Source of the DNA: Escherichia coli
GTDB lineage: Bacteria > Pseudomonadota > Gammaproteobacteria > Enterobacterales > Enterobacteriaceae
Strand: one strand, 5' to 3'
DNA length: 64,000 nt
Assembly: GCF_041248615.1 (NCBI RefSeq)
Contig: NZ_CP158426.1
The notes under the pieces were generated by a model. It was not told where the DNA came from and did not search any database. It saw only the letters and a program-made list of their open reading frames with translations. The position numbers were made by a program, and so were the translations under genes. Shown here one piece after another: positions 3,665 through 48,956 of the stretch; within the stretch, counting starts at the first letter, position 1, and each line of letters begins with the position of its first letter.

Positions 3665-3867
3665 GGGGCAATATCCTCTTCTGTACGGGCTTCTTCAGCC
3701 TCAATCACCGGGATCAGTAACAACAGCCCGGAGGGCAGCACCGGCGTGATGGCCACGTGCGGATTGGCGGCAATAATCCGGGGATAGCCCAGCGGGTCAC
3801 CGTAGTACTGCCATGCCAGCGAATCCCAGCGCTCTCCGTCACGGGTAACATGTTCAAGAAACATCAC
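3652..3867 (-). CDS. Tail protein X-like (LysM-like small tail protein)
   Basis: 71-aa ORF between U-like and D-like genes; pattern resembles P2 gpX. Confidence 0.6.
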   Translation of the reverse strand: MMFLEHVTRDGERWDSLAWQYYGDPLGYPRIIAANPHVAITPVLPSGLLLLIPVIEAEEARTEEDIAPWLR

Positions 3868-4748
3868 ACACTCCTCGTCAGTATTCTGGCGGCCATTGCA
3901 CTTAATCCCGGAGACATGCGGTTGAATGCTGTGCCGGCGGCGTTAAGCTGCCCGGAAACGGTATCCAGAGCACCTGCAATATTTCTTTTGTCCACACCAC
4001 TCAGCGCAGACTGTGCCTGCTGTACATACGTGGCTGCTTCGCTGGCTGTTCTGGCCAGACTGATGGCATCGGGCATGGATTCAGAGAGTGCGTTAAACGC
4101 CGGAACACTTTTCCCCAGAGCCCCGGAGATATTACCCAGTCCGCTCATCAGCCCCGGCACACGGGTCAGTGCGACAACGGGGTTATCCTTCATTTTCTGT
4201 GTCACCCGAACGGCGCTGATAGTGGTCTGGAGTACAGACTGCGCCTGTTTCGCATAGTTGACGCCGTTGCGGATGAACTGCGCCACCCCTGAAGGTGAAG
4301 GAATGGCACCGGAGACCGCCCCGACACCCGGGAGCTTCGTGCGTATTGCCGGTGGTTGCAGAGGATTTTTCGGATCACCGGTGTATTCCCGGAGAGACAC
4401 GGTGGCACTGACAGCCAGCACGTTACCGGTGCTGTCTGTCTGCTCGCTGGTTGCGGTCACATCGGTAATCACGAACCAGCCACGATAGTCACCGTTGCCG
4501 AAGACCAGCGCCAGTGCCTGATGGGCTTTCATGGCTGTTCGCAGTCTCGCCAGCTCCACATCGGGTACACAATAATGCTGATGGAAGACCAGACTTATCT
4601 GGATTTCGTCCAGCCTGTCGCCGACGAACTGCAGGCCAGGCTTACCCCCGATGCGGGCATGCTCCGCATAATCGACGCCGGACGTGGCCTCGAAGCCGTC
4701 CCAGTAGGTAATCAGCTCAAACTCAATATCACCCAGTACGGCAAACAT
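3864..4748 (-). CDS. Tail protein, P2 gpU-like / DNA circulation N-terminal-like
   Basis: 294-aa ORF immediately downstream of tape measure; N-terminus MFAVLGDIEFEL resembles the gpU family. Confidence 0.6.
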   Translation of the reverse strand: MFAVLGDIEFELITYWDGFEATSGVDYAEHARIGGKPGLQFVGDRLDEIQISLVFHQHYCVPDVELARLRTAMKAHQALALVFGNGDYRGWFVITDVTATSEQTDSTGNVLAVSATVSLREYTGDPKNPLQPPAIRTKLPGVGAVSGAIPSPSGVAQFIRNGVNYAKQAQSVLQTTISAVRVTQKMKDNPVVALTRVPGLMSGLGNISGALGKSVPAFNALSESMPDAISLARTASEAATYVQQAQSALSGVDKRNIAGALDTVSGQLNAAGTAFNRMSPGLSAMAARILTRSV

Positions 4749-7699
4749 CAGCGGTACTCCTTACGTTGTTTCTGAGCCAGCAGACGCTCCAGCATTTTTT
4801 CCAGCTCATGCAGACTCATATTCAGGGCACCAGTCAGTCCTGCAGGCGCTGTGGTTTCCCTGCCATTGAGGAAAAACTGAGGATTAAAGCTGACCTGGAT
4901 ACCACCAGACGTTCCACCGCCGGTTGCAGCTGCACCACGGCCTGAATATCCGGCAGTCAGGATTTCAGGCGAGGGGATACGGGGAACATCCGGTGTCATC
5001 TCATTTGCCAGACGTTGCCCTGGTAAAATCGATGCCCGGGTGGGGAGCGGAATAGCGGGCATGGAAGACAAACTATTGATTACGGCTCCGATCGCATTTT
5101 TAGCAGACGACATAAACACATTGATATCGGGCAACGGCATACTGAAGCGAACACCTGAAGTGTTATCCCGTATTTCTGGCCCCTGAATGCTCACGGGCAT
5201 TCTGGGGAGCAGTTCACTGGCCATTCGCTGCCCGGCCAGAGCTGCAAGCGGAGTGGTCCGCTGCAGGCCAATGGCGGCCCCCTGCGCGATATTGTCACCA
5301 AAGCCCATAAACACGCGGCTCGGCGAATGAATGCCCAGCTTTTCGCTGAACCAGCCACTGATGCTGTCGCCCATTCCGGTTACACTGGATTTGAGCGACT
5401 CCCATTTGTTTTTGATACCGTTAATCAGACCATCGACAAGATGGCCACCGAAGTCGGTAAACTTTGCCGGCAGATCAACACCAAGATATTTCAGCGCAGC
5501 TGCAAAGGCTTTATAGAGCAGACCTGCCGGCGACCAGTTAATCAGCAGCTTACCAGTTCCCGCGATACCGCCGTTAAAGGCTTCCTGAATGTCAGCCCAG
5601 CACTGTTTAAACCAGCTACTGATGCTGTCACCCATTCCGGTTACACTGGATTTGAGCGACCCCCATTTGTTTTTGATACCGTTAATCAGACCGTCGATAA
5701 GATGACCACCGAAGTCGGTGAACTTTGCCGGCAGAGTAACGCCGAAATATTTCAGCGCAGCCGCAAAGGCTTTATAGAGCAGACCTGCCGGCGACCAGTT
5801 AATCAGCAGCTTACCAGTTCCCGCGATACCGCCGTTAAAGGCTTCCTGAATGTCAGCCCAGCGCTGTTTAAACCAGCCACTGACTGCCCCCCAGTTGCGG
5901 TAGATAAGGTAAGCTGCTGCCGCGACAGCGGTGATAACGAGACCGATGGGATTCATCATCAGCGCACGTCCAATCCAGAGAACAGCACGTCCGGCGAGCA
6001 TAATTCCGCGAACCAGCCCCCCGGAGAGCACGCCACTCAGTGTTCTGGCTCCTCTGGCGACGGCGCTAAATCCGGTCACCAGCCAGCGGAGCTTACCGCC
6101 TTGCCCCAGTGCGAGCGACAGACGAAGCCAGTTGGCCCGAAGTAAAACAGCATTTTTCCAGACACTTACAAAGGGGGAAATAAGGAGATTCAGCCCCAGT
6201 TTGAGACCAACAGTCGCTATCTTAATCGCAAGGAGCGCACTGATGAGCTTAAAAGCCCCACTGACAAATTGCGGGTGAGTCGCTACCCAGTGTTTTGCCC
6301 CCTGAATGAGTGGAAGCAGTTCCTGAGTCAAAGAAATAAAAGATGGAGCTAATTGATCGCCCAGCGTAATTGCCAGATCGCGACTGCTGACCATAAGTGT
6401 TTTAGTGGCTTCAAGGGGAGATTTCAGCCGCTGATCATAAGCACTGGCAAGCAAATCGTTATCCGCAGCCCTGAGAGCACCGGCACGGATCTCTCGATAT
6501 CTGTCCATGTTGGCCAGCATCGGGCGGATAAATGCCATGACCTGCATATCCGCGAACATATCGCCCAGACCAAAGTTTTTCGCCAGAGCCTGAAGTGCCT
6601 CATCTCTTGCCGTATCATTCTTTATTTTCATGGCTGATTTGAAGCCGGCCAGCGCTTCGGGGCTTTTGGCATTGAGGTAACGTTCTATAACACTCAACAT
6701 CCCTTCAATCGGAGAGATCCCCGCAGCTTTATAACTCGCAATAGATCCCTGCAAATCAATACCCAGATCAGCAAACTGTTTCTGAGTATCGCGGGCAAAA
6801 ATTTTGGTAAGAAAGTTTTTAAAATTATTAGCTGCTTCGTCGGTGGAACCTGCACCGATTTTTGCTATCTGGAGACTGGCCCCGATTTCAGCAACAGCCT
6901 CTTTTCCACTGGCAATACCCGCCATCATTGGGGCCAGGGACTGCATCCACTTGACCTGATCCGGGATTTCAAATGACCCCTGGTCACCGGCATAAGCCAT
7001 AATATTCTGAACGGCACCAAAATCTCTGGCCGCACCTTTCAGGGAGTTTTGCCAGACTGCGGCCACTTTTGCCCAGTCCTGAGCAGACGTGCGTGTTGCC
7101 GTTGCCGCGCGGGCAATATCCGGCATCAGAAAACCGATATCTGACACATTATCAATATTGTCGCTGATGAGTGAACCCACCGCCTCCTGCAGCTCATCCT
7201 GATACTGATTGTATTTAAGCGCCCAGCCTTTTATCTGTCCGGCAAGTGCATCCCGCGTTTTATTGTCATATTTTGCGGTGATCGACATATCAATCATTTT
7301 GTCCTGAAAAGACATGGACTGCTGAACGGCAGGGGAAACCGTATGATAAACAGTCTGTGCCATGCCATACGCTTCAATCCCCTGACCATACAGCGCCATG
7401 CGGTTAGCTTTCAGCGCATCACTGGTAGCGGATGCCGCTGACAGACGGCGCTGCTGGCGCTCAATTTGCTCCATGGTGCGGCTTACCCGCAGCAGCTCGC
7501 TGTTGAGATGCTGCATCCGGGAAGAACCCAGTTGACCATAACGTTCTGTTGCACGGGTTAAAGCGTTCTGACGTTCCTGCAGGCGGCGTGAGGTATCGCT
7601 CAGGGAATCAAGCGCACGGCGGGTACCGCTCATTGCAGAACGGAATGTGCTGCCAATCATCCCGCCGATAACAACGCCGACTGAAAACTGTCCCGACAT
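4748..7699 (-). CDS. Tail tape measure protein
   Basis: 983-aa ORF with coiled-coil N-terminus, hydrophobic central segments and an internal 87-aa tandem duplication; follows the chaperone genes. Confidence 0.85.
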   Translation of the reverse strand: MSGQFSVGVVIGGMIGSTFRSAMSGTRRALDSLSDTSRRLQERQNALTRATERYGQLGSSRMQHLNSELLRVSRTMEQIERQQRRLSAASATSDALKANRMALYGQGIEAYGMAQTVYHTVSPAVQQSMSFQDKMIDMSITAKYDNKTRDALAGQIKGWALKYNQYQDELQEAVGSLISDNIDNVSDIGFLMPDIARAATATRTSAQDWAKVAAVWQNSLKGAARDFGAVQNIMAYAGDQGSFEIPDQVKWMQSLAPMMAGIASGKEAVAEIGASLQIAKIGAGSTDEAANNFKNFLTKIFARDTQKQFADLGIDLQGSIASYKAAGISPIEGMLSVIERYLNAKSPEALAGFKSAMKIKNDTARDEALQALAKNFGLGDMFADMQVMAFIRPMLANMDRYREIRAGALRAADNDLLASAYDQRLKSPLEATKTLMVSSRDLAITLGDQLAPSFISLTQELLPLIQGAKHWVATHPQFVSGAFKLISALLAIKIATVGLKLGLNLLISPFVSVWKNAVLLRANWLRLSLALGQGGKLRWLVTGFSAVARGARTLSGVLSGGLVRGIMLAGRAVLWIGRALMMNPIGLVITAVAAAAYLIYRNWGAVSGWFKQRWADIQEAFNGGIAGTGKLLINWSPAGLLYKAFAAALKYFGVTLPAKFTDFGGHLIDGLINGIKNKWGSLKSSVTGMGDSISSWFKQCWADIQEAFNGGIAGTGKLLINWSPAGLLYKAFAAALKYLGVDLPAKFTDFGGHLVDGLINGIKNKWESLKSSVTGMGDSISGWFSEKLGIHSPSRVFMGFGDNIAQGAAIGLQRTTPLAALAGQRMASELLPRMPVSIQGPEIRDNTSGVRFSMPLPDINVFMSSAKNAIGAVINSLSSMPAIPLPTRASILPGQRLANEMTPDVPRIPSPEILTAGYSGRGAAATGGGTSGGIQVSFNPQFFLNGRETTAPAGLTGALNMSLHELEKMLERLLAQKQRKEYR
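5330..5880. repeat. About 261-bp tandem duplication inside the tape measure gene (two copies plus the start of a third)
   Basis: Near-identical blocks beginning ccagccactgatgctgtc at about 5351 and 5612, partial at 5871; protein repeat WFKQ.WADIQEAFNGGIAGTGKLLINWSPAGLLYKAFAAALKY... twice. Confidence 0.85.
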
Positions 7700-7774: not shown

Positions 7775-8032
7775 CTATGATTTGTCGCCGTACTCGCTTT
7801 TTATTTGCTCTTCAGCCTGCTCCAGCCACATCTCCAGATCGTCAGTATCGAGGGCATCAATCTCCCCCGGCTGAAACCGGAACCATCTCGCCAGCAGCCC
7901 CTGCGCCTGCGTCAGCGCCCTGGTTGCTCTCACCCATCCCCGTGATGAGCTGAAATCGTTTCTGTAACTGCAGGTAATCAGCCAGATCCATATTGTCGAG
8001 ATCTTCCGGGAGAAGACCAGTACTGCGGGCAA
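7775..8032 (-). CDS. Overlapping ORF likely expressed as a frameshift extension of the tail chaperone (E' -like)
   Basis: Open frame overlapping the 3' half of the chaperone gene and extending 28 codons past its stop; frame is +1 relative to the chaperone frame. Confidence 0.5.
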   Translation of the reverse strand: MPAVLVFSRKISTIWIWLITCSYRNDFSSSRGWVRATRALTQAQGLLARWFRFQPGEIDALDTDDLEMWLEQAEEQIKSEYGDKS

Positions 8033-8192
8033 TCAGCGGTTCGTCCCAGTCTGCCGGGTTTTTGCTGATTTTGCGCACCTGCTTCAGGTCTTTTACCGTC
8101 AGGCGTTTCAGTTCAACCAGCTCAATTCTGGTGCCTGCAGCAGTGGTGAAGGGATAAGACAATTTAAAAGTATCGGATGGGGTCTGTGACAT
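7857..8192 (-). CDS. Tail assembly chaperone (Mu/P2 E-like)
   Basis: 111-aa acidic ORF between tail tube and tape measure. Confidence 0.7.
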   Translation of the reverse strand: MSQTPSDTFKLSYPFTTAAGTRIELVELKRLTVKDLKQVRKISKNPADWDEPLIARSTGLLPEDLDNMDLADYLQLQKRFQLITGMGESNQGADAGAGAAGEMVPVSAGGD

Positions 8193-8573: not shown

Positions 8574-9095
8574 TCAGCCCCCGATATTGATACGGTAGTC
8601 AGTCAGCTGATCAACGCCACCGACGCGGAAGATGTTGGCCAGATAGTCCAGTTGCAGCAGCTCTTCACCATCCAGTACCTGTCTGATATACGTGCAGGTG
8701 AAGCTACTGGAGAACTCGGCGTTCTCGTGCTGTTTGAACGTCCCCAGCGGGTTCTTCTTGAACATAATCGTCAGGAAGGTGACCAGCGGGATTTCGTCAA
8801 TCAGCCCCTGCGAGCTGTAGCGCTGGACGCTGGAACGACACTGCAGTGCCAGCGACCTGTACGGGTTCGCGGCAGACAGCATCGCATCGCGGTAAAAGCT
8901 GTTCCATTTGATTTCGCCTTCCAGTTTGTCAAAACCAGCCGGGAGTTCCACCTTACCCACCATCCCCAGCGCCTTGTGTTCCTGCATAATCATGGAGACA
9001 TCGGGGAGTTTAACTTCCTCAGCCCGTCCCAGCAGGTTAGTACCATCCAGATAGATGTTGGCATTCGTGATGCGGTTTATCTCAATCTTTGACAT
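8574..9095 (-). CDS. Tail tube protein (contractile tail)
   Basis: 173-aa ORF immediately downstream of the sheath gene. Confidence 0.8.
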   Translation of the reverse strand: MSKIEINRITNANIYLDGTNLLGRAEEVKLPDVSMIMQEHKALGMVGKVELPAGFDKLEGEIKWNSFYRDAMLSAANPYRSLALQCRSSVQRYSSQGLIDEIPLVTFLTIMFKKNPLGTFKQHENAEFSSSFTCTYIRQVLDGEELLQLDYLANIFRVGGVDQLTDYRINIGG

Positions 9096-10522
9096 CAGTT
9101 GCCCCCTTTCAGGGTTAACAGGTATTCCGAGGTGATCTCAGTCTCATACGTCAGTCGCTCCAGCGGTGGCGGCGGCGTGTATTTGTAGCTCAGCAACAGG
9201 TGACCGGCTGCCAGTTCCGTCTCCGGATTACGGGCCGGATCAAACCAGCAGTTGAAACCCAGCAGTGCACCATCACTAATCATCTTTCGACCGTAGGCGT
9301 TGACCGACTCCGTCAGTGCATCAATCAGCGCCTGAGTAATCGGCATGTCGATGTACTGCTGACTGAAGTAACGAATGGACTCGTTGATCACATCACCGGT
9401 GCGGCGAACATTCTCAAAGTTACGCATATGGGTGACCGTTGGCCATGCTGCCGTCCGGTTACCACACAGACGAAGGCCGCTGCCATAACTGCTGAATACC
9501 GTGGTGATCCCCTGTTCGTTAAGCAGGTTCACCTCACTCTGTGGGTCATCAATCATCGCGGACAGCTGGCGCTCCACACCGGTGATCCCCAGAATCTCCT
9601 GATTGGAGGACGACCACCAGTAGCCCTTGTCCAGATCGACTCTGGCACGCAGACCTGCTGCACGCTGGCTGAGCGGCTCCAGACGCTCCGTGTTTGTCAC
9701 CGGGTCATATACCTTCACATGCGGATAGCACAGACGGACGCGGTCGGAGCTGGTATTGAAGTTAATGGTGCCTTCCGGGCCACGACCTGCCAGAGCCTGT
9801 GCAAAGGTGGTACCGACAGGCGCATCAATGTAGGTTACCGCTCCCAGCTTCTCTGTCATGGCGATAAGCTCAACTGCTACACTCTTCTGGGTGCAGAACA
9901 CCGGCGCAATCAGAATTTTGGCAAAATAGCCGTACAGGTTGAAGCTGTCGTTAAGCAGCTTCATGCCGGTTCGGTTTCCGGCGCTGTTCACCCCGCCGAT
10001 GATGTCCGCCGCAGTCACCTTCGACGGGTCCGCGTACTCATAGCTCACCTTCACGCTGCCACTGGCCTCAATAGCCTTGCCCAGGTTCGTGAGCACACCC
10101 GTCTGCGCATCAACACGGTAGTCCGTGTTCGCCGTGTGGGTGGTGCTGCCTTCACTGTTTTTCACCACCACATTAGCGACAACCGGATGCGCCAGTCTGG
10201 CCTGCCCTGTCGATTTGTCAAAGGTAACCACTTCACCCTGGATCGCCGTTTTATGTTTCGCCGGGTCGAGGACGTTAATGACCAGAACGGTGCCTGCACC
10301 ATGGTCATAAATCGCATCCAGCGCCTGCGGAATGGTAAAGCCGGTGAACTGGCTGCCAAATGCCGCTGCGTCTTTCTCAGACAGGCACTGTACCAGCGTA
10401 TTGACGTCCCCCATCGGGGCGGTACCAATCAGGCCAATAACGGCAGATTTCACCGTTTTAACCGGGCGGGCTCCGTTTTCCACCTCAATGGTTTCGACGC
10501 CATGCAGATAGTTAGCTGCCAT
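9095..10522 (-). CDS. Tail sheath protein (contractile tail)
   Basis: 475-aa ORF; recalled similarity to Mu L / P2 FI sheath family. Confidence 0.85.
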   Translation of the reverse strand: MAANYLHGVETIEVENGARPVKTVKSAVIGLIGTAPMGDVNTLVQCLSEKDAAAFGSQFTGFTIPQALDAIYDHGAGTVLVINVLDPAKHKTAIQGEVVTFDKSTGQARLAHPVVANVVVKNSEGSTTHTANTDYRVDAQTGVLTNLGKAIEASGSVKVSYEYADPSKVTAADIIGGVNSAGNRTGMKLLNDSFNLYGYFAKILIAPVFCTQKSVAVELIAMTEKLGAVTYIDAPVGTTFAQALAGRGPEGTINFNTSSDRVRLCYPHVKVYDPVTNTERLEPLSQRAAGLRARVDLDKGYWWSSSNQEILGITGVERQLSAMIDDPQSEVNLLNEQGITTVFSSYGSGLRLCGNRTAAWPTVTHMRNFENVRRTGDVINESIRYFSQQYIDMPITQALIDALTESVNAYGRKMISDGALLGFNCWFDPARNPETELAAGHLLLSYKYTPPPPLERLTYETEITSEYLLTLKGGN

Positions 10523-46380: not shown

Positions 46381-48956
46381 CGTCCACCTCCGGAGAACAG
46401 GCCACCATCACGCATCTGTGTCTGAATTTCATCACGGGCACCCTTGCGGGCCATGTCATACACTGCCTTCATCATCTGTGGACCTGGCAGACCATTCGTA
46501 CCGTCGTTCTGAATCACCACGTGATTGTTCTGATTAAAATTAATGCCTTCAGCCCGCCGCATCTGCGCCGGACTTCCGGTGCCACCGACATAACCACCAG
46601 TGGCATAGCCGCGCATCAGCCGGTAGAGATTCCCCACGCCAATCCGGCTGGTTGCCTCCTTCGTGAAGACAAATTCACCACGGTGAACAATCCCCGCTGG
46701 CTCATATTTGCCGCCGGTTCCCGTAAATCCTCCGGTCGCAAAATGGAATTTTGCCGCAGCAGCCTGAATGGCTGTACCGCCTGACACTGATGCGCCACCA
46801 CCGGCAGCACCGCCAATGACGCTGCCGATACTCCCGACAATCCCCACCATTGCCTGCTTAACCAGAATTTCTGTCATCATGGACAGCACGGAACGGGTGA
46901 AGCTGCGCCAGTTCTGTTCACTGCCGGTCAGCATCGCCGCCATATTCTGCGCAATACCATCAAAGGTCTGCGTGGCAGCACTTTTAACCTGCGACATACT
47001 GTCCGTGGCGCTCTCTTCCCACTCACTCCAGCCGGACTTCAGGCCTGCCATCCAGCTCCCGCGAAGCAGGTCTTCAGCCGCCCAGGTCTTTTTCTGCTCT
47101 GACATGACGTTATTCAGCGCCAGCGGATTATCGCCATACTGTTCCTTCAGGCGCTGTTCCGTGGCTTCCCGTTCTGCCTGCCGGTCAGTCAGCCCCCGGC
47201 TTTTCGCATCAATGGCGGCCCGTTTTGCCCGTTGCTGCTGTGCGAATTTATCCGCCTGCTGCGCCAGCGCGTTCAGGCGCTCCTGATACGTAACCTTGTC
47301 GCCAAGTGCAGCCAGCTGGCGTTTGTACTCCAGCGTCTCATCTTTATGCGCCAGCAGGGATTTCTCCTGTGCAGACAGCTGGCGACGTTGCGCCGCCTCC
47401 TCCAGTACCGCGAACTGACTCTCCGCCTTCCACAAATCCCGGCGCTGCTGGCTGATTTTCTCATTTGCTCCGGCATGCTTCTCCAGCGTCCGGAGTTCAG
47501 CCTGAAGCGTCAGCAGGGCAGCATGAGCACTGTCTTCCTGACGATCGCCCGCAGACACCTTCACGCCGGACTGTTTCGGCTTTTTCAGCGTCGCTTCATA
47601 ATCCTTTTTCGCCGCCGCCATCAGCGTGTTGTAATCTGCCTGCAGGATTTTCCCGTCTTTCAGTGCCTTGTTCAGTTCTTCCTGACGGGCGGTATATTTC
47701 TCCAGCGGTGTCTGCAGGCGTTCGTAAGCCTTCTGCGCCTCTTCGGTATATTTCAGCCGTGATGCCTCAGAGTCGGCCCAGTCCTTTGCTGCCATCTCTC
47801 TGGCCTTTTCAAGATCGGCCTGCAACGTGGCGGCTGAAAGCCCAAGTTGCGCATTCGCTCTGTCCTCCCATGCTCCCCGGAGATTGGCAAGAAATGCTGA
47901 GGTTTTACCGCGCCGGTGGCTCCGGCTCTGATACCACTGCCATTTTTTGTCCGCCTCATCAAAAGCCTTTTCTGCTTTCTCCAGCATTTCCCGGGCAGTG
48001 TCCGGGCGACCAATATCCAGCACCGAATCCCACATGGATTTGAATGCCCGCGCTGTCCTGTCTGCCCAGGTCTCCAGCGTGCCCATGTTCTCTTTCAGGC
48101 GGCGGGTCTGGTCATCAAACCCTTTCGTTGCGGCCTCGTTCGCCGCCTGCAATGCCCCTGCCTCATCGCCGGAACGCTGCAACTGAGCAACATACGCAAT
48201 CTGCTCCGCCGTCACGTTATGGAACTGACGCGCCATCGCTGTCAGCCCTGACGTCGGGTCTGTGGTCAGCTTCCCGAAGGCTTCAGCGACCTTGTCCACC
48301 TCCACGCCGGATGCAGAGGAGAAACGCGCCACACTCTGGCTGATGGACGCAATCTGAGCCTCACCGCTTACCCCCGCCTTAACCAGTGCGCTGAGTGACT
48401 CGCTGGTCTGGTTAAACGTCAGCCCTGCCGCCTGCCCGGCTCTGGACAGGACCAGCATACGATCTGCCGTCAGACCCGACTGATTGCCGGAAAGGACCAG
48501 CGTTTTGTTGAAATCGGACAGGGTTGAGTTGCCCTGATACCAGGCATACGCCAGCGCACCGGTCGCCACCGCCAGCGAGGTGGCCCCGACCATCGGCAGG
48601 GTGATCGCACCGGCAAGCCCCCTGAACATGGGGATCATCCCGCCGAAGGAGTCCTTCACCTGCCCCCCCTGTTGCAGCAGGATCAGCCACGGACTTTGCC
48701 CGCCTGCAAGCTGCGTGGCCACGTCGGTGAACTGTGCAGGCAGCATACGCATGGCGGCTTTATACTGCCCGACGGAAATCCCCGCTTTCTGTGCAGCCAG
48801 CGCCTGCCGGTTCATTGACTGTTCAACGACTGCCGCTGTTTTTTTCGCATCACTTTCCGTACCGGAAAAATGACGCCTGACTCTGGCCATCTGCTCGTCA
48901 AATCTGGCCGCATCCAGACTTAAATCAACGACCAGATCGCCTACCGGTTCAGCCAT
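46377..48956 (-). CDS. H: Tail tape measure protein H
   Basis: 859-aa ORF in lambda order after G/T. Confidence 0.85.
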   Translation of the reverse strand: MAEPVGDLVVDLSLDAARFDEQMARVRRHFSGTESDAKKTAAVVEQSMNRQALAAQKAGISVGQYKAAMRMLPAQFTDVATQLAGGQSPWLILLQQGGQVKDSFGGMIPMFRGLAGAITLPMVGATSLAVATGALAYAWYQGNSTLSDFNKTLVLSGNQSGLTADRMLVLSRAGQAAGLTFNQTSESLSALVKAGVSGEAQIASISQSVARFSSASGVEVDKVAEAFGKLTTDPTSGLTAMARQFHNVTAEQIAYVAQLQRSGDEAGALQAANEAATKGFDDQTRRLKENMGTLETWADRTARAFKSMWDSVLDIGRPDTAREMLEKAEKAFDEADKKWQWYQSRSHRRGKTSAFLANLRGAWEDRANAQLGLSAATLQADLEKAREMAAKDWADSEASRLKYTEEAQKAYERLQTPLEKYTARQEELNKALKDGKILQADYNTLMAAAKKDYEATLKKPKQSGVKVSAGDRQEDSAHAALLTLQAELRTLEKHAGANEKISQQRRDLWKAESQFAVLEEAAQRRQLSAQEKSLLAHKDETLEYKRQLAALGDKVTYQERLNALAQQADKFAQQQRAKRAAIDAKSRGLTDRQAEREATEQRLKEQYGDNPLALNNVMSEQKKTWAAEDLLRGSWMAGLKSGWSEWEESATDSMSQVKSAATQTFDGIAQNMAAMLTGSEQNWRSFTRSVLSMMTEILVKQAMVGIVGSIGSVIGGAAGGGASVSGGTAIQAAAAKFHFATGGFTGTGGKYEPAGIVHRGEFVFTKEATSRIGVGNLYRLMRGYATGGYVGGTGSPAQMRRAEGINFNQNNHVVIQNDGTNGLPGPQMMKAVYDMARKGARDEIQTQMRDGGLFSGGGR

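What the first reader, a model, noticed from the sequence alone, without database searches (positions are those of the whole stretch)
5330..5880. Tandem 261-bp duplication in the Mu-like tape measure gene
Two full 87-aa copies and the start of a third are present. Tape measure length sets tail length, so the duplication predicts a longer tail than in relatives lacking it; alternatively it could be an assembly artefact.
Basis: seen in the sequence. Interest (0 to 1): 0.35.

Follow-up and report, generated by a model that had tools for sequence, protein, structure and literature searches.

The report
Copy-variable repeat in prophage tape measure
The 261-bp in-frame tandem duplication in a prophage tail tape measure gene is real, not an assembly error; the same unit is present in one, two or three copies in hundreds of E. 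coli genomes, which should give tails of three lengths, an ordinary kind of variation for this type of protein.

Summary
Observation confirmed. Window 5349-5883 holds two in-frame 261-nt (87-aa) units that differ at 14 of 261 nt. A 13-nt motif, TCAGTGGCTGGTT, occurs before, between and after them. The units lie in a 983-aa tape measure protein (TMP) gene on the minus strand (4748-7699).

The prophage is transposable and BcepMu-like, with a P2-type contractile tail module. The TMP resembles BcepMu gp44 (E 9e-95) but not Mu gp42 (E 0.59).

The assembly-artefact alternative is rejected. The copies are diverged, and the same two-unit gene aligns in one piece in hundreds of independent complete E. 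coli genomes.

The unit number varies among alleles:
- 896 aa: one unit
- 983 aa: two units
- 1070 aa: three units

My estimate for about 647 genes in 593 complete genomes is roughly 2-4% one-unit, 72-75% two-unit and 23-24% three-unit. No four-unit allele was seen. Mosaic units, several crossover points, and all three classes on both flanking haplotypes point to recurrent unequal recombination. More distant relatives carry one unit.

The same module is duplicated independently in many other TMP lineages. A longer tail, about 13 nm or three tube rings per unit, is inferred from ruler experiments in other phages and was not shown here. This is a new example of a known kind of variation and of modest interest.

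The parts
4748..7699 (-). Tail tape measure protein gene, 983 aa, intact ORF
   Evidence: ORF list and translation. PF10145 PhageMin_Tail at aa 159-340, 74 bits. PHROG 5690 and PHROG 28 'tail length tape measure protein'. Annotated as tape measure protein in the 100%-identical record NZ_LT599825.1.
5618..5878 (-). Repeat unit 1 (aa 608-694), 'alpha' type: ...KYFGVTL...HLIDG...KWGS
5357..5617 (-). Repeat unit 2 (aa 695-781), 'omega' type: ...KYLGVDL...HLVDG...KWES. The last unit is of this type in all seven two- and three-unit alleles examined.
5871..5883 (-). 13-nt motif TCAGTGGCTGGTT at the upstream border of unit 1
   Evidence: The same border is present in all alleles compared.
5610..5622 (-). 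Internal unit-to-unit junction, variant TCAGTAGCTGGTT (Gly to Ser)
   Evidence: An 80-nt junction probe finds 779 places in 571 genomes.
5349..5361 (-). 13-nt motif TCAGTGGCTGGTT at the downstream border.
5900..5965 (-). Second hydrophobic segment (aa 579-600), immediately upstream of the repeat
   Evidence: Kyte-Doolittle scan. The segment is conserved in distant homologues.
6176..6268 (-). First hydrophobic segment (aa 478-508)
7857..8192 (-). Tail assembly chaperone gpE (Phage_TAC_7) upstream of the TMP gene
   Evidence: The same protein, WP_000084213.1, accompanies one-, two- and three-unit alleles.
3864..4748 (-). P2 gpU-like tail protein immediately downstream of the TMP gene
   Evidence: PF06995, 134 bits
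8574..10522 (-). Tail tube (FII, 8574-9095) and tail sheath (FI, 9095-10522), the polymers whose length the TMP is expected to set
   Evidence: PF04985, and PF04984 with PF17482

Best explanation
This is a genuine in-frame tandem duplication of an 87-aa module in the tape measure protein of a BcepMu-like transposable prophage with a P2-type contractile tail. I propose it arose once in this prophage lineage, possibly by slippage or illegitimate recombination at the 13-nt motif that flanks the unit. The two copies then diverged into an upstream 'alpha' type and a terminal 'omega' type. Since then, unequal homologous recombination between units has repeatedly added a copy (three-unit alleles with hybrid middle units) or removed one (single-unit alleles that are chimeras with different crossover points). 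The E. coli prophage population therefore carries TMPs of 896, 983 and 1070 aa. The TMP acts as a molecular ruler around which the tube and sheath polymerise, so each extra unit is expected to lengthen the tail by about 13 nm (87 aa x about 0.15 nm), roughly three tube/sheath rings or 9-10%.

Shown here: the duplication, its reading frame, the copy-number polymorphism, the mosaic structure of the units, and the TMP identity.

Inferred: the direction of the individual events, the role of the 13-nt motif, and the effect on tail length.
For: Repeat and reading frame.

TMP identity and tail-module context.

Not an artefact:
- The full 2952-nt gene aligns in one piece in all 41 top-ranked records and in most of a 60-row sample spread down the ranking. 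These include IAI39, CE10 and many ST131 strains.
- The internal junction 80-mer occurs in 571 genomes.

Copy-number classes:
- Genes of 2691, 2952 and 3213 nt hold 1, 2 and 3 units, all with intact ORFs.
- The protein database shows length classes of 896, 983 and 1070 aa, and nothing longer ranked at the top.
- Census: 647 C-flank places against 779 junction places, and 16 ingroup single-unit genomes.

Recurrence:
- Two N-flank haplotypes differ at 68 of 1821 nt, and each carries one-, two- and three-unit alleles.
- L004 has a flank identical (0 of 1821 differences) to the two-unit ST131 allele L008. Its unit equals the start of L008 unit 1 followed by the rest of L008 unit 2.
- L003 and L015 cross over between unit sites 72 and 117.
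- L016 carries a unit that is alpha type throughout.
- The middle unit of L005 has an internal-type (unit 2-like) 5' end joined to an alpha 3' half.

Polarity of change:
- Outgroup TMPs (L009, L010, phage KP12) have one unit.
- Alpha and omega each carry derived states relative to the outgroups. Single-unit L003, L004 and L015 carry all the omega-derived states.

Generality: 581 TMP cluster representatives contain the module. Of the 90 full-length ones among the best 150, 25 have 2-4 copies with lineage-specific spacing.

Ruler effect in other phages: TP901-1 deletions and a duplication scale tail length, from 118 nm down to 65 nm, with an x-intercept at 127 aa. Deletion in the first hydrophobic region also shortens the tail (PMC5099701). 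Lambda and T4 are cited in the same paper and in PMC3271669.
Against: - No particle measurements exist for any of these alleles, so the tail-length effect is extrapolated from unrelated siphophage TMPs.
- The conformation of the unit is unknown. The single-sequence AlphaFold2 model has a mean pLDDT of 44, and no solved relative was found. If the module folds back on itself, the length added per unit would be less than 13 nm.
- Allele frequencies are biased by clonal sampling, for example of ST131.
- The direction of change (collapse versus retained ancestral single unit) rests on parsimony over few sites. An alternative origin, by recombination between two diverged single-unit alleles, is not excluded.
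- Some single-unit proteins in the large protein database may come from short-read assemblies that collapsed the repeat.
Confidence: 0.78

Rival explanations
1. Assembly artefact: the second copy was created by mis-assembly, and the true gene has one unit.
For: Repeats of this size do trouble short-read assemblies. The phage PhiKM record has a 100-N gap exactly inside the repeat. PGAP splits intact three-unit genes into two 'partial' features.
Against: The two units differ at 14 of 261 sites in a consistent alpha/omega pattern. An artefactual duplication would normally give identical copies. The same two-unit gene aligns in one piece in hundreds of independently assembled complete genomes. The junction is present in 571 genomes.
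Confidence: 0.01
2. The duplication is real but neutral for tail length. The module would be a compact or baseplate-proximal or membrane-insertion element that does not lie extended in the tube lumen, so copy number changes DNA-delivery properties or nothing at all.
For: The unit follows the hydrophobic segments directly and precedes a strongly conserved motif, GWF..LGIHSPSRVF.GFG. That placement could reflect a role in channel formation rather than length measurement. The structure prediction is uninformative. Some TMPs are known to carry non-ruler domains (own knowledge).
Against: In TP901-1, deleting residues in the repeat region and in the first hydrophobic region both shortened tails proportionally. 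The module tolerates one to four copies and variable spacing across lineages, which fits a spacer or ruler better than a precisely folded functional domain.
Confidence: 0.18
3. The two-unit allele did not arise by duplication followed by divergence. Instead it arose by illegitimate recombination at the 13-nt motif between two already diverged single-unit alleles (alpha type and omega type) from co-infecting phages. The extant single-unit alleles would then be the parents, not collapse products.
For: A fully alpha single-unit allele (L016) and mainly omega single-unit alleles (L004) both exist. This would explain 5% divergence at birth.
Against: L004 has an N-flank identical to the two-unit allele L008 (0 of 1821 differences). 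The start of its unit matches L008 unit 1, as expected for a recent deletion product. L003 and L015 are alpha/omega chimeras with internal crossover points. Alpha/omega divergence in the 3' half of the unit is about 8%. That exceeds the divergence of the adjacent C-flank, which is at most about 2%.
Confidence: 0.1
4. The prophage is defective, so TMP length variation is drift in a decaying gene with no phenotype.
For: In this strain the tail-fibre invertase is frameshifted. Induction was not tested.
Against: The TMP ORFs of all nine ingroup alleles checked are intact and every length change is in frame. The structural and transposition genes are annotated intact in the record, the frameshifted invertase being the only exception listed. 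A 97%-identical genome was deposited as an isolated phage, PhiKM.
Confidence: 0.1

Closest known systems
Tandem-repeat 'units' in tape measure proteins and their duplication/loss history (Belcaid et al. 2011, PMC3271669; TP901-1 TMP repeats, Mahony et al. 2016, PMC5099701)
   Same: In-frame tandem repeats in a TMP that change in number by duplication and loss. They are proposed as a natural route to tail-length change, and aromatic residues (W, F) are conspicuous in the unit.
   Different: Those units are 11 aa (or 11-11-18) with periodic W/F. Here the unit is 87 aa without an 11-residue W/F period. It sits after the hydrophobic segments, in a contractile-tailed phage of a Gram-negative host. 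The polymorphism of one, two or three copies is seen within one closely related prophage population.
BcepMu gp44 tape measure protein (Bcepmuvirus)
   Same: Homologous TMP: 31% identity over 763 aligned positions, E 9e-95. The tail module has the same P2-like gene order and the phage has the same transposable lifestyle. The 97%-identical phage PhiKM is classified as Bcepmuvirus.
   Different: BcepMu has a single copy of the module that is 24 aa shorter, and a TMP of 846 aa.
Engineered TMP length mutants (lambda gpH, T4 gp29, TP901-1)
   Same: In-frame duplication or deletion within the ruler protein. These are the experimental basis for predicting proportional change in tail length.
   Different: Those are laboratory constructs. 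Here the series is natural and no tail measurements exist.
Phage Mu gp42 tape measure protein
   Same: Same role and position in a transposable myophage.
   Different: No detectable pairwise similarity (best E 0.59). The Mu tail module (L, M, gp41, gp42, N, P) is not the P2-type module found here.

Membership tests
Phage tail tape measure protein (Pfam PF10145 / PHROG 28 and 5690) | Match to the family profile above the curated threshold | tested here: met
   PF10145 at 74 bits against a cut-off of 33.2, aa 159-340. phrog_5690 E 3e-301 and phrog_28 E 8e-135.
Phage tail tape measure protein (Pfam PF10145 / PHROG 28 and 5690) | Gene lies after the tail tube and tail assembly chaperone genes and before the distal tail and baseplate genes | tested here: met
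   Order is sheath, tube, hypothetical gene, gpE (Phage_TAC_7), TMP, gpU, gpX, gpD, then baseplate V/W/J/I.
Phage tail tape measure protein (Pfam PF10145 / PHROG 28 and 5690) | Long, largely helical protein with internal hydrophobic segments | tested here: inconclusive
   Hydrophobic segments at aa 478-508 and 579-600. The AlphaFold2 model of aa 476-831 is mostly helical but has pLDDT 44.
Phage tail tape measure protein (Pfam PF10145 / PHROG 28 and 5690) | Protein length determines tail length | not testable with these tools
   This needs EM of phages with one-, two- and three-unit alleles.
TMPs with 11-aa W/F periodic units (Belcaid 2011) | W or F recurring every 11 residues (or in an 11-11-18 pattern) over at least 7 periods | tested here: not met
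   W/F positions in aa 603-800 have irregular spacing: 609, 610, 614, 621, 635, 645, 652, 660, 663, 679, 696....
Mu (Muvirus) tape measure gp42 | Sequence similarity to Mu gp42 | tested here: not met
   BLASTP best E 0.59.
Mu-like transposable phage (genome level) | DDE transposase with a MuB-like ATPase, plus Mor, Gam and Mu-type head genes, and insertion within a host gene | tested here: met
   RefSeq annotation of the identical record lists a DDE transposase, ExeA-family ATPase, Gam, Mor, a DUF935 protein and a virion morphogenesis protein. The prophage lies between the two halves of a YadA-like gene. This rests on annotation and was not re-derived here.
Bcepmuvirus-type TMP (BcepMu gp44) | Significant full-length similarity and a P2-like tail module in a transposable phage | tested here: met
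   E 9e-95 with 31% identity. Synteny. PhiKM (Bcepmuvirus) is 97% identical at the nucleotide level.

The most novel reading that the evidence does not exclude
The 87-aa unit behaves as a recombination-driven length switch. Recurrent unequal crossing-over would keep one-, two- and three-unit alleles circulating in a very common E. coli prophage (including ST131). The resulting phage particles would have three discrete tail lengths, and selection would favour different lengths on hosts with different capsule or O-antigen thickness. This would be a contingency-like mechanism for a virion dimension.
Probability: 0.1. Interest if true: 0.55.

Novelty: new member of a known kind. Interest (0 to 1): 0.3.

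Why it matters
Tape measure proteins are the standard example of a molecular ruler, but most evidence comes from engineered mutants of a few siphophages. Here nature provides an isogenic-like series of 896, 983 and 1070 aa. The sheath, tube and chaperone proteins are the same across the series, and the host is a contractile-tailed prophage found in about 11% of complete E. coli genomes. That series would allow a clean test of the ruler rule (nm per residue, and integer numbers of rings) in a P2/BcepMu-type tail. It would also allow a test of whether tail length matters for host range.

There is a practical point too. The repeat breaks short-read phage assemblies (PhiKM) and misleads automatic annotation, which marks intact three-unit genes as pseudogenes.

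Tried and rejected
- I first read the group of genomes matching only query positions 602-2952 as alleles with a different C-terminus. Fetching them showed they are simply three-unit alleles.
- I looked for alleles with four or more units. Genomes with 3-4 junction places carry several prophages with three-unit genes. The protein database shows nothing longer than 1070-1084 aa at the top of the ranking.
- I tested whether the extra 71 aa (aa 823-893), absent from outgroups, is a second duplication. BLASTP gave E 7.7 and no DNA repeat was found, so this is not supported.
- The AlphaFold2 single-sequence model of aa 476-831 had pLDDT 44 and is unusable, so no fold search was run.
- The PDB sequence search found no relatives.
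- Literature searches for PhiKM, for E. coli BcepMu-like prophages and for Mu-like prophages of ST131 found no description of this polymorphism.
- Comparisons with Mu gp42 and P2 gpT gave no similarity and marginal similarity respectively.
Full report
**1. The observation**

Tandem Repeats Finder reports a single array at window 5349-5883: period 261, 2.0 copies, 94% matches, no indels, score 972. The repeat finder gives two 261-nt copies at 95% identity.

The array lies inside a 2952-nt ORF on the minus strand (4748-7699, 983 aa). In that reading frame the units are aa 608-694 (window 5618-5878) and aa 695-781 (window 5357-5617). They differ at 14 nt and 6 aa.

The 'start of a third copy' is a 13-nt motif, TCAGTGGCTGGTT (S-G-W-F). 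It occurs just before unit 1 and at the end of unit 2. A one-mismatch variant occurs at the internal junction.

**2. What the gene is and where it sits**

The protein matches Pfam PF10145 (PhageMin_Tail) at 74 bits against a cut-off of 33.2. It also matches PHROG families of tail length tape measure proteins.

The window is 100% identical to the E. coli NRZ14408 chromosome. The gene lies in this order: sheath (FI), tube (FII), a small ORF, chaperone gpE (Phage_TAC_7), TMP, gpU, gpX, gpD, then baseplate V/W/J/I. This is a P2-type contractile tail module.

The rest of the prophage is annotated with Mu-type head genes, a DDE transposase, a MuB-like ExeA ATPase, Gam and Mor. It lies between the two halves of a YadA-like gene. 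It is therefore a transposable phage of the BcepMu type. The 97%-identical phage PhiKM is classified in Bcepmuvirus.

Pairwise comparisons of the TMP:

| Compared with | Result |
|---|---|
| BcepMu gp44 | 31% identity, E 9e-95 |
| Mu gp42 | no similarity, E 0.59 |
| P2 gpT | marginal, E 0.015 |

'Mu-like tape measure' is thus right about the phage's lifestyle but wrong about the ancestry of the gene.

**3. Not an assembly artefact**

- The two units differ at 14 sites in a pattern that recurs in other genomes.
- The complete 2952-nt gene aligns in a single piece, at 96-100% identity, in most of a 60-row sample spread down the ranking of 635 matching complete genomes. These include IAI39, CE10 and many ST131 strains.
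- An 80-nt probe across the internal junction finds full-length matches in 571 genomes.

The artefacts that do occur run the other way. The PhiKM record has 100 Ns exactly inside the repeat. PGAP annotates some intact three-unit genes as two 'partial' pseudogenes.

**4. Copy number is polymorphic**

Fetched examples:

| Gene length | Protein length | Units | Examples |
|---|---|---|---|
| 2691 nt | 896 aa | 1 | FCI23, AVS0947, UPEC129, F1140 |
| 2952 nt | 983 aa | 2 | the window, JJ2434 |
| 3213 nt | 1070 aa | 3 | A1.S1.65, 2016C-3878, 10034292-3, NR3838, M-17 |

All of these have intact ORFs. The same sheath, tube and chaperone proteins (WP_000729834.1, WP_162832341.1, WP_000084213.1) accompany all three classes.

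The 5.8-billion-protein collection shows the same three length classes. No four-unit protein ranked at the top.

Census in 5426 complete genomes:
- A C-flank 80-mer gives 647 places in 593 genomes.
- The junction 80-mer gives 779 places in 571 genomes.
- A single-unit probe finds 16 ingroup single-unit genomes.

Solving n1+n2+n3 = 647 and n2+2·n3 = 779 gives n3 − n1 = 132. With n1 of about 16-25, this yields roughly 460-485 two-unit genes and 148-157 three-unit genes. These are rough estimates and are biased by clonal sampling, for example of ST131.

**5. How the variation arises**

Unit types:
- Across alleles the last unit always has an 'omega' 3' half (YLGVDL...HLVDG...KWES).
- Upstream units have an 'alpha' 3' half (YFGV[TA]L...HLIDG...KWGS).

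Polarity:
- Outgroup TMPs from related prophages and from Klebsiella phage KP12 (821-825 aa, 62-94% protein identity to the single-unit allele L004) have one unit.
- Relative to them, alpha and omega each carry derived states: alpha at unit sites 133, 143 and 218, and omega at sites 117, 135, 138 and 181.
- All ingroup units are closer to each other (up to 21 differences) than to the outgroups (25-39 differences).
- So the duplication arose within this prophage lineage and the two copies then diverged.

Single-unit ingroup alleles are chimeras with different breakpoints:
- L004 has an N-flank identical (0 of 1821 differences) to the two-unit ST131 allele L008. Its unit is the first approximately 16 nt of L008 unit 1 followed by L008 unit 2.
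- L003 and L015 switch from alpha to omega between unit sites 72 and 117.
- L016 is alpha throughout.

Three-unit alleles have middle units that are hybrids. An example is L005 unit 2, which joins an internal-type (unit 2-like) 5' end to an alpha 3' half.

Two N-flank haplotypes differ at 68 of 1821 nt, and each carries one-, two- and three-unit alleles. Protein-level signatures in the large database show still more mosaic types. Some of those may be short-read collapses.

The most economical reading is recurrent unequal homologous recombination between units. The 13-nt flanking motif is a plausible site for the original event, but that is an inference. An alternative origin, by recombination between two diverged single-unit alleles, is not excluded. 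It fits the flank data less well.

**6. The unit is a widespread, repeatedly duplicated module**

phmmer with the 87-aa unit against 1.84 billion cluster representatives finds 581 proteins at E ≤ 0.001. The sequences inspected are TMP-like. They share a hydrophobic segment, the module, and the motif GWF..LGIHSPSRVF.GFG.

Re-scoring the best 150 with a profile gives these counts among the 90 proteins of at least 700 aa:

| Copies of the module | Proteins |
|---|---|
| 1 | 65 |
| 2 | 22 |
| 3 | 2 |
| 4 | 1 |

Unit spacing ranges from 54 to 116 aa depending on lineage. This indicates independent duplications with different boundaries. Pfam has no model for the module. W/F residues are frequent but not 11-periodic, so this is not the 11-aa unit class of Belcaid et al..

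**7. Expected consequence (inferred, not shown)**

TMPs determine tail length in lambda, T4 and TP901-1. In TP901-1, deletions in the repeat region and in the first hydrophobic region shortened tails proportionally. Tails went from 118 nm to 65 nm and the x-intercept was 127 aa. A 29% duplication lengthened the tail by about 30% (background).

Taking TP901-1 TMP as about 937 aa (own knowledge), the slope is about 0.146 nm per residue, close to an alpha-helical rise. On that basis 87 aa adds about 13 nm. This is roughly three tube/sheath rings of about 4 nm (ring height from my own knowledge of contractile tails), or 9-10% of the tail.

The conformation of the module is unknown. The AlphaFold2 model has pLDDT 44 and no solved relatives were found. 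The size of the step, and even its existence, therefore needs EM.

**8. Verdict**

- The gene is a BcepMu/P2-module TMP, not a Mu gp42 relative.
- The window carries the commonest of three natural copy-number alleles.
- Single-unit alleles within this group appear to be secondary collapses, while more distant relatives are ancestrally single-unit.

The phenomenon, TMP repeat duplication and loss, is known. I found no description of this particular polymorphism in the searchable literature. Interest is modest.

Noticed in passing
window 5021-5233 (minus strand; TMP aa 823-893): A 71-aa segment is present in this prophage group but absent from the single-unit outgroup TMPs (L009, L010, phage KP12). 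Its first ~21 aa (GQRMASELLPRMPVSIQGPEI) echo the sequence that follows it (GQRLANEMTPDVPRIPSPEI). This is a second length difference in the same ruler protein. BLASTP does not support a duplication (E 7.7).
   Followed up: partly
window 34051-34863 (and L001 11277-11657, upstream of the window): The transposable prophage lies between the two halves of a YadA-like adhesin gene. The right prophage end is near window 33.7-34.0 kb, and the prophage is about 37.6 kb long.
   Followed up: no
window ~35600-64000: A second, lambdoid prophage lies directly beside the first. It has its own tape measure gene (window 46377-48956). An IS256-like IS1414 (window 39459-40667) splits a gpJ-like tail-tip gene.
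   Followed up: no
L005 900-4112; L013 2171-5383: Intact three-unit TMP ORFs (3213 nt, no internal stop) are annotated by PGAP as two 'incomplete' pseudogenes. This is an annotation artefact of the repeat.
   Followed up: yes
L002 6853-6952 (phage PhiKM, PQ738613.1): The deposited phage genome has a 100-N sequencing gap exactly inside the repeat, so its unit number is undetermined.
   Followed up: yes
window 7775-8192 (minus strand): The tail chaperone gene gpE (7857-8192, Phage_TAC_7) overlaps an ORF in another frame (7775-8032). That ORF corresponds to the 'GpE family' E' extension annotated in another genome (L007 3927-4085). This suggests a P2-like E/E+E' programmed frameshift that is not annotated in this record. 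No slippery site was identified.
   Followed up: partly
L001 11732-12303 (just upstream of window start): The tail-fibre invertase (recombinase family) of this prophage is annotated as frameshifted in strain NRZ14408.
   Followed up: no
proteins P0130 and P0141 (distant TMP homologues): Besides 2-4 copies of the module, these TMPs carry long C-terminal arrays of short repeats: PELPA[ML]RV..EAPALPELGTLRAPG in one and QQQTI.QRL..A.IPP.GD in the other. These are further repeat-based length variation in the family.
   Followed up: no
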